Assembly: GCA_964016885.1 (NCBI GenBank)
Contig: OZ024751.1
Location: forward strand, 39,618,001 to 39,682,000
DNA: 64,000 bases
Reading direction: 5' to 3'
From: Eledone cirrhosa
Lineage: Eukaryota
The notes under the pieces: generated by a model
Databases searched by the model: none
Told to the model about the DNA's origin: nothing
What the model saw: the letters and a program-made list of their open reading frames with translations, nothing else
Made by a program: the position numbers and the translations under genes
Part shown: piece after piece, positions 47,601 to 56,600 of the stretch
How the letters are laid out: the number at the start of each line of letters is the position of its first letter
How positions within the stretch are numbered: the first letter of the stretch is position 1

Positions 47601-50600
47601 ACATATGTCGGTAGATATATTAATTCTTTATAATTAACTCCGAATCATTTGTTGAGCAAAATTTGCCAAAATTACTACTGTGACTGATAGTAGTGGCTAG
47701 GCTCTGTCTTAATAGCACCCCCACTCCAAGCTGGTTAACCTCAGTGTCACGTGATTGATTCTTTTGAATTTGCCACTTGACCAAGAAGGCAGTGAATTTT
47801 TCAATGGAATCTAGTCCCGCTCGCTTTTTTCCATCCACTGAATTATTTTTATGGAGTGAAATTTTAGTAAGTAAGTCAATTTTCATAACTTTCTTATTTA
47901 CGTCTTTCATATATATATATATATATATATATATCCCCTCTCTCGCTCTCTGGCGTATATATATTACATATAAATATATATAATACTCAGATCTTAATTA
48001 TTAAGGCTTGATGATTACTAAGCAGATGTGAGGCTGTATTATCTCTCCAATAAAATGATCTGTTCCGGTAGGAAACTAAATGTTAACCTACATAGTGTTA
48101 TTATATAACTACATAGCTCTTTACTAATAACAATCTCTTGGGGTGCCATATTGATATACGGTCATTTTTAAACATGATGATGATGATGATGATGATGATG
48201 TTGTCGATGATATACTTACCACCACCACCACCACCACCACCACCACCGCCGCCACCTCCATAACGCCTTCTATTAGCTACGGATGGAATTCTGGGTGCTA
48301 TAGTGAAAAGAAAAAAAAATCATAAATAAAATGGTGATAGTTGATTGTCAACATTTGAAATACAAATAAAACGATAGGATAAACTACTTTACACCCAACA
48401 CACATACACTCAAACACAGACACATATCCACATCTCTCTCTCTCTCTCTATATATATATATATATATATATATATATATATATCCCCTCTCTCGCTCTCT
48501 CGCGTATATATTTTATATATAAATATATATAATACTCAGATCTTAATTATTGAGGCCTGATGATTACTAAGCAGATGTGAGGCTGTATTATCTCTCCAAT
48601 AAAATGATCTGTTCCGGTAAGAAACTAAACGTTAACCTACATAGTGTTATTATATAACTACATAGCTCTTTACTAATAACGATCTCTTGGGGTGCCATAT
48701 ATACGGTCATTTTTAAACATGGCGGAACCCTGTCTTCTCCAGTATTAAATACAGCAGATTTTTCCATAGAAAGCTAGAGAGAGCGAGAGAATGAAAGGAA
48801 GGAAAAATATAGAAGAAAAATCGATCCCAGTACTTGACTAGTACTTCTTTCTCGACTTCGAAAGGATGAAAGGTAAAGTCGACCTGGGTGGCATTTAAAC
48901 TCAGAGACCGGAGAGTCGAAACGAATACCGCAAAACATTCTTTCCGGCTTTCTAACGACTCTACCAATTCGCCGCCATTTTAGTCTAACATGAACATAAT
49001 ATAATTACTTGTAACTGTTTGGGATTCTTCAGCATCAAATGCCTCTTCACTTTCCGGTTTTACAACTACCATTGACGTCACTGGTGTTACAAATTGATAC
49101 TGAAAAGGTTAAAATTAATATAAAATAATTTTTAATATAAAAATAATTTAATATAAAAATAATTTTGGTGGAGAGGGGAAAGTCGATTATATCGACCCTA
49201 GTGCGTGACTGGTAATTTGAACTCAAACCGTAAAGGGGCGTAACTCTATGGTGAAAAGCATGGTGTTCTACCGATTCTGTCAAGCAAATTAGAAAAAATA
49301 TGTATGAAATATGTTTTACTTTCAAAGATAATTTTACGGCTTGCTGCTTCAATTCTTCCTTCTCTGTTTCAGAATTTGTTATTATTCTCTTCTCTAGAAG
49401 TTGCTTGATAGTTAGATAAGCCCAGAGTTTCTCGGGAATACCTTTAATATCCTCGTCTTTAAGAAGACCGATTCCTTCCCCAACCTCCGATGGATCGAAC
49501 ACTTCTGATGTATCAGAATGATCGACACTACCAGTATTTGTACTTCCGACTAGATTCCATCGAAGAGTCGAGATCGAATCATCGTTGAGACGTCCAGCTA
49601 TAACGGATTCTGTTCCTTTGAAATAACGGCGGAATTCGCTAGTTGTCAGGGAGGTGTTTTCGACCTGAAATATAATAATAATAATAATAATAATAATAAT
49701 AATAATAATGAAGGGAAGAAGACGCACGAGGTGACGGAGGTCATGAAATCGCTCCCGTAAGTTTTGAATTTTTAACATATTTAAACCATTTGTGAAATAA
49801 CAACTCTTAGTACAAATGCTACGTAAAGCACCCGGCTTGAGCCCCAAAAAATTCGGACCCAAAATATATTGTTATAAGGCTCAAATATTCAAATATTCAA
49901 CTTTGTATTGTACACTGTATATCCAAAAAAGAAAATGGCTATAAATGGAAGAAGAACCCCCCCCCCCTCCTCCTCTGTATACACTATATAGAACAGCCAA
50001 ACTCACCAACACCAGAAACTAGATACACCACCCACCCTATCACCTGTGTACACTAAACCACCACCGATCACTACGGCCATCATTACAACCATTATCCCAT
50101 CACCGCCGCCACCACCCCTTCACTCCTTCACTGCTGCCACCGCTACAGCACCATCGCTACAGTAATACGGTCACATCACCGCCACCACTGTCTCGGTATC
50201 GACATCACCACCACCACTGTCTCAGTATCGCTACCGCCGCCAGTCTCCCACTTCTTCTTTTAGCTGGCTGCTGCCACCACATTATAGAATCCCTACTGCT
50301 AAAAAAGAGGAAGGCATCAAAATATATAGATAGACTCAAAAGAAAAAAGAAAAAATAAACAACAAAAGCAGCACAGCAACAACAGTAAAAAACGAGAAAA
50401 ACAGAGAAAAACAAAAACAAAAAAAGAAACCCCCAAAACGTAAAGAAAATAAGAATGAAGAGAGAGGCAGGCGGACGGACAGAGAAGAGGGGGGAAAAAG
50501 TAAAACTTAAAAAACAAAAACTAAGTCAGACATTCGAATACTACATTATAATGAAACTTATGCTTATTCATTTTTGGGGCCCTTTCTGCCCGTGTGTTTG

Positions 50601-53600: not shown

Positions 53601-56600
53601 ACTGTGGCTCACATTGTGTCCGAGTGTAAACACCTAGCCCAGACCCACTATAAGGGCTGGAGACACGATGTGATGGGCAGGGTGATCCACTGGCACCTGT
53701 GCAAAGTAAACAATCTACCACATTCTGAGAAATGGTATGAGCATAGGCCAGAGGCGGTGATGGAGAACAGTCAGGTGAAGGTGCTGTGGGATTTTAGGAT
53801 ACAGACGGACAAAAAACTGGAACACAATAGACCTGACCTGGTGGTTGTGGACAAAGAAAAAAGATCGTGCCTGATTGTGGATGTGGCCTGCCCGTTCGAC
53901 ACGAGAGTGCAAGAGAAGGAGAGGGAGAAAATTAACCGATACCAGGACCTAAAGTGGGAGGTGAAAAGGATTTGGAACTGCCATGAAGTCAAAGTGATCC
54001 CGATTGTCATAGGCGCACTGGGGACTATCTCCAAAGGTTTCCAGGGATGGTTAAAGAAAATCGGCCCCTTCACGCTTTTTGGAACGCTTCAAAAGGCATG
54101 CTTGCTTGGAACGGCAAGAACCCTCCGATACGTCCTGAATATCTGAGGCTGCAGGTAGTGGCTTGATATTCAATCCAACGGACTTTCCAGTTAACCAACA
54201 TCAATGACTGAGATTCAAGGAATAACAATAACAATAATAATAATAATAATAATAATAATAATAATAATAATAATAATAATAATAATAATAAGAAGAAGAA
54301 GAAGAAGAAGAAGAAGAAGAAGAAGAAGAAGAAGAAGAAGAAGAAGAAGAAGAAGAAGAAGAATGGTTACTTACATAGGCACAAGGCCAACGATTGGGGG
54401 GGGGAGGGGAAAGTCGATTTAATCGACCTCAGTGCGTTACTGGTACTTTATTTTATCGACCCCGTAAGGATGAAAAGCAAAACTTACCTCAATAATAATT
54501 AATTAATTAATTTGATTAAAAACAATAACATACTGTGTCTCCGAAATATTCAAATTTCAGATTGGTCATCAAAGCAGCAGATATTTCGTTATAAAAGTTC
54601 TTTAGCTGTACAACAGTATCCGAGGCCTCGTAAATACGTCTGGCTACGGCATGGTTCTGAAGAGAGATCTTCTGTAGAAGAGGAAAGTCTGCGTCAGCTC
54701 CAAATGATAAAGAAAATAGAGGAATTTCATCTGTGTTTTTTTCAGCTACGTTCTTTTGTATTTGCAATCCATTAGTCACACCGGTAGAAGCAGCGCCGTC
54801 TGTTAAAAATATTATCAATGGTGACCGACCTTCTTTCTTGGAAAGTTGGAAATCCTGCAGTAAGTCTAATCCTTTAAGTAGAGCCGTGTTGATATTTGTA
54901 GCTGTTATAAAGAATTTTTTTAAATTCAGTCAAGCTAAATACAATATGTATGTATGTATGTATGTATGTATGTATGTATGTATGTATGTATGTATGTATG
55001 TATGTATGTATGTATGTGGTCAGGTCGTTGGCGACTAAACTGGCAACTTCACCAAGGTTTCTTGGTGAGGAGGGTGAATTTGGACATCCTGCAGGACTAA
55101 AAACAAAACCTGTCAAAGGGCAAAGGAGCTCTTAAGAGTCAATGGCCATCCAAAATCACGGCACAGGCATTGCTTTATATCTGGAGTACTCTCTGCACTT
55201 GTCGTCACATGGTGCCATGGGCCCAGCACTATGTGTCAATAATTGTCACAAGTGTAGTGTTTGTACCAGAGTTTTCAAGTCGCTGGCTGGACTAAGAAGT
55301 CACACTCGTTCAGCGTATCGGTAGGAGTTCTCCTACATGGATATAAATTAGTGGCCGTACTCGAAAACGAGTTGGCAGCCACCATGTATATGTTCTTTAG
55401 GGACTGTTCTGAACTGCCTGCTGTTGAGCAACATCTGGCTTGCCAGCACTGTGGTCGAGTCTGCCTGAGCAAAGCTGGTTTTATTAGACACAAACAAAGT
55501 CATATCAGTAGATCTCATGTAAATTATGATACGAACAGGTGTAAGGAGTATGGCGAAGAATGTGCTAGCATGGGAGGTCTTAAAAGACACATGAAAACAC
55601 AGCCAGAACAAAGCAATGGAAAGTCCCAGGGAAGCCTATAGTTGCCATGTATGTGCCAGAGAGTGCAATTCTTTGGCAGGTTTAAGCAGCCACATTCGTG
55701 CTTCACATTTTTGAGCAATTGATCAGGCGATGGCAATGCTCGTACGAGCTTGCGACCATCATTTATATATATATTTATGTATGTGTTTGTGTATGCATGT
55801 ATCTATGTGATGTGTGTGTAGAGAGAGAGAGAGCGAGAGAGCGAGTCAGAGAGAGAGATTACTTACATCCCGATGAAGATCGTTTTGTTATCCATACCAA
55901 AGCGTTATTTACGTTTTTTTCATTCCAAAGCATCATGTCCTGTTTCCAGAATTTTACAGAACTGTCAAAGTCCATTATATTAAATCGATCTCCTTCGGTC
56001 ATATCTTGGACAATTTGGTCCATGGCACTTTTCACTTGAGTCATCTTACGTCCATACATGGACCCACTTGTGTCTATTATGAAGAGGACATCTTTTGGAA
56101 TTGGTTCTAAGTCAATTGGAGCAAAGAAATGCACAAAGTAACCATTTACTGCCTGCAAAAATATTAAAAATGCAATGAAAGGTTACAGCTTACATTCTAC
56201 ATAGTTTGTTTCAGGTGTTTTACTGAAAGAGGCCCCAGTACTATCATGTTGATGTTACAATTAACATAAATACAAAATTAGCTGGCTTCCTACATAGTTG
56301 CATCTCATAGAAGGTTTATGGGTCCCAGTTCTGTTATGTTCTGTCATGTTGGCGACTGTATCGTTGTTTACAGATATTGATGTGAATATATATTTCATCT
56401 TAAGTGAGATTCTGTGTTGCAGGTACTGGAGCATTATATAGCTGTGTGGTTATTGTTTTCTGTCAATGGTAGCGCAGTCTTTAGTGTAATGAGGCGCCAT
56501 GTTGTTCTATCTGCTACAATGGTTTGGTCTTTAAATTTTTAGACACCAAAATGGAAATGACACACACTCATATATATATATAGGTGTGTCTGTGTGTGTG

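What the first reader, a model, noticed from the sequence alone, without database searches (positions are those of the whole stretch)
49672..54362. Same (AAT)n site colonised independently by unrelated retrotransposon classes in the two paralogs
Seen: the intron 8 (AAT)n-(AAG)n tract holds an intact RT-RLE element on the plus strand in B and two APE-RT Tx1 elements on the minus strand in A. RLE elements in the window read into (AAT)n and Tx1 into (TTA)n, i.e. opposite strands. Known: Dong (R4 clade) targets TAA repeats. Inference: convergent targeting and competition for one microsatellite niche by RLE and APE endonucleases, with three insertions since a recent duplication.
Basis: partly seen in the sequence, partly recalled or inferred. 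Interest (0 to 1): 0.8.

Follow-up and report, generated by a model that had tools for sequence, protein, structure and literature searches.

The report
Two retrotransposon classes share AAT repeat
In two near-identical copies of a gene from what is likely an octopus, the same short AAT repeat inside an intron holds unrelated jumping genes on opposite strands, likely because both kinds seek this repeat; that habit is known for one kind and has close parallels for the other, so this is a new example and not a new principle.

Summary
Observation confirmed. The same intronic (AAT)n-(AAG)n tract holds one open-frame RT-CCHC-RLE element (+, 49710-54220) in gene copy B and two full-length APE-RT elements (-, 11196-17226, 17245-23258) in copy A, with repeat units on both sides of each. 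The two APE-RT copies differ by 19 synonymous versus 10 replacement codons in ORF2 (p<=6e-5), so they are separate retrotranspositions, not a DNA duplication. They group in an RT tree with U2-inserted Keno-like elements (Tx1 clade). The RLE element fits R4/Dong, whose TAA target is published, molluscs included. Both families are high-copy, but a family-wide junction count failed because the read tool skips the repeats. Corrections: I count intron 7; nothing shows competition; A and B may be alleles or a copy-number variant, since another individual shows one mosaic copy. Precedents: Keno/Utopia (APE and RLE, same U2 site) and SART/TRAS (one repeat, opposite directions). New part: a Tx1 family likely targeting (ATT)n, not found in six paper searches. 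This scan noted the same pairing three times on other DNA of this genome (unchecked notes).

The parts
49320..49664 (-). Host ITIH-like gene, copy B, coding exon 8; its splice acceptor lies about 7 bases from the repeat tract
49672..49709 (+). (AAT)12 target tract on the 5' side of the RLE element; same position as 11147-11195 in copy A
49710..54220 (+). R4/Dong-like non-LTR retrotransposon, full length, about 1 kb 5' UTR and short 3' UTR; antisense to the host gene
   Evidence: family depth starts in the bin 49560-49759 and rises to the 3' end
50754..54146 (+). Single ORF, 1130 aa: N-terminal helical bundle, RT (FMDD), CCHC knuckle, restriction-like endonuclease
54221..54363 (+). 3' (AAC/AAT)n tail plus target remainder, then (AAG)24
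54534..54901 (-). Host gene copy B, coding exon 7 (vWA)
10794..11138 (-). Host gene copy A, coding exon 8
11147..11195 (+). (AAT)16: (ATT)n tail of Tx1 copy a merged with the target tract, next to the acceptor
11196..17226 (-). Tx1-clade element a, full length (6031 bp); ORF1 split by a frameshift near 16147; ORF2 14879-11460 (APE, RT, zf-RVT) open; sense to the host gene
17227..17244 (+). (AAT)6 between the two Tx1 copies (head-to-tail junction)
   Evidence: read depth 4+5 (X11) and 1+4 (X13) across both skipped bins
17245..23258 (-). Tx1-clade element b, full length (6014 bp); ORF1 23045-20949 and ORF2 20913-17494 open; one substitution in a conserved RT motif
23259..23305 (+). (AAT)5 on the 5' side of Tx1 b, then GAG and (AAG)10
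23475..23842 (-). Host gene copy A, coding exon 7
7761..9582 (+). Older 5'-truncated RLE element of a second family between (AAT)13 and (AAT)6, directly at a later acceptor, copy A
45930..47258 (+). Same older RLE insertion in copy B, with an internal deletion, between AAT tracts

Best explanation
One intronic AAT repeat holds a Dong-like restriction-endonuclease retrotransposon in gene copy B and two separately inserted Tx1-clade retrotransposons on the opposite strand in copy A, likely because each family's own endonuclease cuts this repeat. Shown: the tract pre-dates the insertions, all three elements are full length with repeat units on both sides, the strands are opposite, and the two Tx1 copies come from different source elements. 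Inferred from the known target-primed reverse transcription mechanism: the Dong-like enzyme nicks the (ATT)n strand and primes on an RNA ending in AAU/UAA units; the Tx1 APE nicks the (AAT)n strand and primes on an RNA ending in AUU units. Both families are abundant, so shared sites should be common in this genome.
For: Repeat on the 5' side of all three elements and of the 5'-truncated second RLE family. Both Tx1 5' junctions are identical to the base and in the same repeat phase. ORF2 of a versus b: 19 synonymous, 10 replacement, dN/dS 0.17, p 3e-6 to 6e-5 against neutral change. Two further hits in a 40-100 bp tract of a 30 kb unit by chance: about 2e-6 to 1e-5, a post hoc figure. 1 of 1 RLE relative fetched with DNA (L001, about 31% identity) lies between (ATA)17 and (TAA)100 on the same strand. 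Dong-TAA targeting in insects, molluscs and cnidarians (PMC7998251 section 3.3; PMC3812793). RT tree: the window Tx1 falls in a 13-row group (SH-aLRT 96, quick tree) with L005 and L008, whose A-tails join a 5'-cut U2 snRNA gene; Tx1-clade microsatellite targeting is published (PMC4494074). Contig depth in run X4: RLE about 1e5 (5') to 9e5 (3'), Tx1 about 2e5 to 1e6, host exons 17-24 (not a copy number).
Against: Tx1 specificity rests on two insertions at one locus, and the later one may simply have used the earlier one's tail. The family-wide junctions were skipped in both read-laying runs (24, 30). 0 of 67 metagenome loci found with the Tx1 alignment hold an AAT-class tract of 4 or more units; these are distant (mostly 21-38% identity) and many are partial, so the target is not shared across the clade. 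The closer relatives (P0121-P0126, 40-79%) came without DNA. The window was chosen for being odd. No nick site or target duplication can be read inside a perfect repeat.
Confidence: 0.75

Rival explanations
1. The Tx1 family is not repeat-specific. It makes its own (ATT)n tail and has only a loose taste for T/A-rich DNA, helped by tail-target pairing; it hit a Dong target here by that loose bias.
For: Only one locus examined. 0 of 67 distant Tx1-like loci carry such a tract, and the two with a readable target have A-tails and U2 targets. Microsatellite tails are common in octopus LINEs (RTE case in PMC9115989).
Against: (ATT)5-6 lies on the 5' side of both copies in the same phase; the tract is shared with copy B, so it is not a Tx1 tail. 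Two separate events landed there.
Confidence: 0.17
2. A and B are not fixed paralogs but two alleles placed in tandem by the assembler, or a copy-number variant. The three insertions would then be polymorphic alleles of one site. This is compatible with the best explanation and changes only the timing story.
For: In run X4 (another individual, or a close species) three host contigs run unbroken through 13 A/B diagnostic columns: 11 show the B base, 2 the A base, with depth 16.7-21 against 13-19.5 for the five diverged single RLE pieces listed. Divergence is low: 160 of 9434 columns (1.7%) in nine blocks picked to avoid long simple repeats.
Against: A third exon-1 copy lies at 2820-3100 (6 differences in 299 columns to A's exon 1), so the array has at least three starts. 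A and B differ by 41 replacement versus 3 synonymous codons and by several large indels. Contigs drop rare variants and a filter removes records.
Confidence: 0.35
3. The two Tx1 copies are one insertion doubled by unequal crossing-over or by an assembly stutter, so only two insertions took place.
For: Head-to-tail, 99.1% identical, same end points.
Against: Strong excess of synonymous differences in ORF2, which neither neutral drift after duplication nor assembly error gives. Depth across the head-to-tail junction in two other individuals (9 and 5 reads) suggests that such junctions exist as DNA, though not necessarily at this locus.
Confidence: 0.04
4. The two families compete for a limited microsatellite niche and exclude one another.
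For: Each gene copy holds only one of the two classes at this site; all 9 tracts of 5 or more units in the window are occupied.
Against: Insertion leaves repeat on both sides, and a second Tx1 entered an occupied tract. Earlier scan notes (unchecked) describe mixed chains of both classes on one tract in this genome.
Confidence: 0.1

Closest known systems
Dong (R4 clade) of Bombyx, Anopheles, Biomphalaria, Darwinula; Dong-R4 of Octopus
   Same: Single ORF with RT and C-terminal restriction-like endonuclease, no N-terminal zinc finger, (TAA)n on both sides, same strand polarity (PMC7998251 section 3.3; PMC3812793 and PMC3774820 passages). Dong-R4 is listed with 1129 recently active insertions in O. 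vulgaris (PMC13282606 table 1).
   Different: No named Dong sequence was available to compare. No 5' HDV-like ribozyme was detected, and the Myb-like domain could not be confirmed.
Kibi (TC)n, Koshi (TTC)n and crocodilian Tx1 families on (TTCC)n/(TTTC)n
   Same: Tx1-clade APE-RT elements that insert into microsatellites (PMC4494074 introduction and section 15).
   Different: Repeat unit here is ATT/TTA, host is a mollusc-like genome, and the site is shared with an RLE family. Figure 3 of that paper lists more targets and could not be seen.
Keno (Tx1, APE) and Utopia (NeSL, RLE) in U2 snRNA genes
   Same: An APE and an RLE family reached the same target site in parallel (PMC4640811, passage).
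   Different: Target is a low-copy RNA gene, both share the same 3' flank and so the same direction; here it is an abundant microsatellite used from opposite strands.
TRAS1 and SART1 in Bombyx (TTAGG)n
   Same: Two families insert into one repeat in opposite directions; two to three repeat units suffice; the endonuclease sets the specificity (PMC7265360 passages).
   Different: Both are APE-type R1-clade elements with poly(A) tails and a telomeric target; here the endonucleases are unrelated and the tails are made of the repeat itself.

Membership tests
R4/Dong clade | Single ORF with RT and C-terminal CCHC plus PD-(D/E)xK endonuclease | tested here: met
   best solved matches are R2 proteins by sequence and by fold
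R4/Dong clade | No N-terminal zinc fingers (unlike R2) | tested here: met
   no C2H2 pattern in the ORF; no such Pfam hit
R4/Dong clade | Diverged N-terminal Myb/SANT-like domain | tested here: inconclusive
   four-helix unit predicted at residues 47-112; single-sequence model pLDDT 62, only generic bundle matches, best Z 6.2
R4/Dong clade | (TAA)n on both sides, element reading into TAA/AAT | tested here: met
   same in relative L001
R4/Dong clade | 5' HDV-like ribozyme | tested here: inconclusive
   no Rfam match; my rough descriptor found none, also none in L001, and had no positive control
R4/Dong clade | RT phylogeny with named R4/Dong references | not testable with these tools
   no named reference sequences among the hits
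Tx1 clade | Two ORFs; ORF2 with APE, RT and C-terminal cysteine-rich region | tested here: met
Tx1 clade | RT groups with Tx1-clade members | tested here: met
   13-row group, SH-aLRT 96, with two elements joined to cut U2 genes. Quick tree only; the label 'Keno-like' is my inference from the U2 target described in PMC4494074 and PMC4640811
Microsatellite-specific Tx1 family | More than 20% of flanks of the family are the repeat (criterion of PMC4494074) | tested here: inconclusive
   2 of 2 copies in the window, one locus; junctions skipped by the read tool; no genome held

The most novel reading that the evidence does not exclude
An abundant, young Tx1 lineage related to U2-targeting Keno-like elements has switched to (ATT)n and now shares Dong's microsatellite genome-wide from the opposite strand; the two unrelated endonucleases renew each other's landing sites, turn AAT tracts at splice acceptors into insertion hot spots, and swell a roughly 270-base intron to 4.9 or 12.3 kb, with the sense-strand Tx1 poly(A) signal able to cut the host transcript short.
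Probability: 0.45. Interest if true: 0.55.

Novelty: new variant of a known kind. Interest (0 to 1): 0.36.

Why it matters
If the Tx1 family is specific, it adds a new target to the Tx1 clade and gives a natural pair of unrelated endonucleases (APE and restriction-like) that read one three-base repeat from opposite strands. That is a simple system for asking how much of LINE targeting comes from the nuclease and how much from tail-target pairing. It would also help explain intron growth and clustered LINE arrays in cephalopod genomes, and it shows that microsatellite 'safe havens' can sit a few bases from splice acceptors. The principle of convergence is already known, so the gain is moderate.

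Tried and rejected
No genome is held, so no genome-wide count. Reads and contigs were laid on the RLE locus and on the Tx1 head-to-tail junction; both times the tool skipped the repeat tracts, so flanks of other copies, empty alleles and presence/absence at this site were not seen. A 24-base Tx1 5' pattern found 0 matches in metagenome contigs. The Tx1 alignment found 0 relatives among 116 candidates in viral contigs and 67 of 253 in metagenomes, all distant. The RLE alignment found 1 of 252 in viral contigs. Cluster look-up named only starfish proteins in 1 of 10 clusters; the ESM Atlas gave no clade names. No Rfam family in the window; no ribozyme found at either 5' end. Myb-like fold not confirmed. 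The tree is the quick one; the careful search did not finish, and the second RLE family and ORF pieces under 250 aligned residues were left out. The 32 listed RLE differences to the family majority inside the ORF split 16 synonymous, 16 replacement, a selected subset, not used further. I first read 63880-64000 as a third gene copy and dropped that: it is intron 1 of B, whose exon 1 lies outside the window. Earlier-findings look-ups by sequence, by nearby place and by words gave nothing. Small-share runs X3 and X10 were not used. Paper searches found no report of a Tx1 family on (TTA)n/(ATT)n; Repbase, Kojima and Fujiwara 2004, figures and supplements were not seen and may hold one.
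Full report
Setting. The window holds two tandem, near-identical copies of an ITIH-like gene on the minus strand (VIT, vWA and ITI_HC_C domains): A at about 3.3-35.4 kb and B from 40.8 kb to beyond the window end. Nine aligned blocks picked to avoid long simple repeats differ at 160 of 9434 columns, 1.7%. The repeat landscape suggests an octopus; this is inference, no call names the organism. No genome is held.

Observation. In B an (AAT)12 tract starts about 7 bases from the acceptor of coding exon 8 and is followed by a 4.5 kb element on the plus strand, then (AAT)19 and (AAG)24. 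Its single ORF is open for 1130 codons from the ATG and holds RT, a CCHC knuckle and a PD..D..K motif. In A the same place holds (AAT)16, a 6031 bp APE-RT element, (AAT)6, a 6014 bp copy, (AAT)5, GAG and (AAG)10, both elements on the minus strand. Flanks align at 98% on both sides, so this is one ancestral site of about 270 bases that is now 12,336 bases in A and 4,869 in B. By my exon count it is intron 7. Element a has a frameshift in ORF1 in a T-run, which could be a sequencing error; element b has a substitution in a conserved RT motif. A second, 5'-truncated RLE family sits in another AAT tract at a later acceptor in both copies. All 9 of 9 AAT-class tracts of five or more units in the window touch an element end, but they represent two ancestral sites; tracts of three or four units are mostly empty.

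Target or tail. A 3' repeat can be a tail. Here repeat units also lie on the 5' side of all three full-length elements and of the truncated one, and the tract beside exon 8 is common to A and B although different elements follow it. So the tract came first. Both Tx1 5' junctions are the same to the base and in the same phase. Target duplications cannot be read in a perfect repeat.

Two or three insertions. The Tx1 copies differ at 39 substitutions over about 6 kb. In ORF2, 19 codon differences are synonymous and 10 are replacements; dN/dS is 0.17 and p is 3e-6 to 6e-5 against neutral change, depending on the transition bias assumed. The differences therefore arose in active source lineages, and the pair are two retrotranspositions. 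Depth of 9 reads in X11 and 5 in X13 runs across both skipped bins of the head-to-tail junction, against about 550 and 410 just inside the 5' end; this suggests such junctions exist in other individuals, at this or another locus.

Identity of the elements. The RLE protein matches R2 proteins best among solved structures, lacks N-terminal zinc fingers and has many unnamed relatives at 31-66% identity (120 listed of 169). The one relative fetched with DNA, L001, lies between (ATA)17 and (TAA)100 in the same polarity. This fits R4/Dong as described in PMC7998251 (passages and section 3.3 read), which gives (TAA)n as the target in most insects, molluscs and cnidarians; PMC3812793 (passages) lists Dong, DongAg and DongBg on TAA, though it calls them APE-type; PMC3774820 (passages) used a TAA-Dong 5' junction and reports a 5' ribozyme. 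I could not confirm the Myb-like domain or a ribozyme. The APE-RT element groups with five relatives at 40-79% identity, and these six join seven metagenome rows (SH-aLRT 96, quick tree of 56 rows), two of which end in an A-tail joined to a 5'-cut U2 gene, the Keno pattern. That supports the Tx1 clade. 0 of 67 metagenome loci carry an AAT-class tract of four or more units, so the repeat is not a clade-wide target; those loci are distant and often partial.

Family level. In run X4, summed contig depth is about 1e5 at the RLE 5' end and 9e5 at its 3' end, about 2e5 and 1e6 for Tx1, and 17-24 on host exons. The tool warns that this is no copy number, but the gap of four orders of magnitude and the 3' bias mark two abundant, 5'-truncating families. 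PMC13282606 (passages) lists 1129 Dong-R4 and 421 L1-Tx1 recently active insertions in O. vulgaris and has no occurrence of 'target'; PMC9115989 (passages) reports a full-length Dong in O. bimaculoides; PMC10294476 (passages) finds R4-Dong almost only in cephalopods among the molluscs compared. The decisive junction count failed because the repeats were skipped in both calls.

Paralogs or alleles. X4 has three host contigs that run without a break through 13 columns where A and B differ; 11 show B and 2 show A, at depth 16.7-21, close to the 13-19.5 of the five diverged RLE pieces listed. That individual looks to carry one copy. This fits alleles assembled in tandem, a copy-number variant, or a sister species. 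Against simple allelism stand a third exon-1 copy at 2820-3100 and 41 replacement versus 3 synonymous differences between A and B. I put alleles or copy-number variant at about 0.35. The targeting argument does not depend on it.

Mechanism. From the known target-primed reverse transcription pathway, an element's first nick is on the strand opposite to its sense strand and the freed 3' end primes on the RNA tail. The Dong-like element would thus nick the ATT strand and the Tx1 element the AAT strand, each with a tail made of the same repeat. PMC7265360 (passages) shows that two to three repeat units suffice for SART1 and TRAS1 and that the endonuclease sets specificity, so tracts of five or six units are plausible targets. 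Each insertion leaves repeat on both sides, so the site is renewed; the stacked Tx1 pair is what that predicts. All nick positions are inferred. Nothing here shows competition.

What is known. APE and RLE elements reaching the same site in parallel is stated for Keno and Utopia (PMC4640811, passages). Opposite-direction use of one repeat is known for TRAS1 and SART1; that comparison was prompted by note e1-9513955 and checked in PMC7265360. Tx1 families on (TC)n, (TTC)n, (TTCC)n and (TTTC)n are in PMC4494074 (passages and section 15). Six searches found no Tx1 family on (TTA)n/(ATT)n and no report of this pairing in cephalopods; Repbase, Kojima and Fujiwara 2004, figure 3 of PMC4494074 and all supplements were not seen and may bear on this. 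Three earlier notes of this scan describe the same pairing on other pieces of this genome, and one describes a GATA-targeting Tx1 family; they are unchecked and are not counted as support.

Verdict. Real and well defined. The Dong part is known, the convergence principle is known, and the likely new item is a Tx1 family on (ATT)n that shares Dong's repeat from the other strand. What this locus adds is a paired view of one site filled by either class, and proof that the tandem Tx1 copies are separate events. New variant of a known kind; interest 0.36.

Noticed in passing
window host exons, A 30146-6344 and B 58791-44452 (-): ITIH-like gene (VIT, vWA, ITI_HC_C). Copies A and B differ by 41 replacement and 3 synonymous codons (pN 2.1%, pS 0.57%, p 0.008), with open frames in the exons assembled: a sign of diversifying selection between copies or alleles.
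   Followed up: partly
window 7759-7800, 11138-11195, 45928-46002, 49664-49709: Both AAT tracts with insertions lie at the very 3' end of introns; in one the acceptor AG is the last repeat unit. RLE elements are antisense to the host gene, Tx1 elements sense, with an AATAAA just before the Tx1 tail.
   Followed up: partly
window 2820-3100: A third copy of the signal-peptide exon 1 (6 differences in 299 columns to A's exon 1); the array continues left of the window or a fragment was duplicated.
   Followed up: partly
window 47345-47500 and 48174-48290: Two glycine-codon-rich stretches on the gene strand, possibly small exons before the DPHF motif, are present in B and absent from A.
   Followed up: no
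window 9-518 (-): Fragment of another Tx1-like ORF1 (26% identity to the ORF1 of element b), cut by the window start.
   Followed up: no
window 23050-23190 (-): The Tx1 5' UTR folds into a stable multi-stem structure (z -4.5, 0 of 200 shuffles as good); no Rfam match.
   Followed up: partly
L005 4675-4885, L008 5815-5977, L016 9202-9356: Metagenome Tx1 relatives: two with A-tails joined to a 5'-cut U2 gene, and one followed by a U1 gene about 1.7 kb after the matched region.
   Followed up: partly
L001 2399-6370: A broken Dong-like element between (ATA)17 and (TAA)100 inside a 30.6 kb viral contig.
   Followed up: partly
window 55020-55750 and 25760-27000: Insertion after an (ATGT)n tract with several C2H2-like codon runs, present in both copies and longer in A; probably the 3' part of another retroelement.
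   Followed up: no
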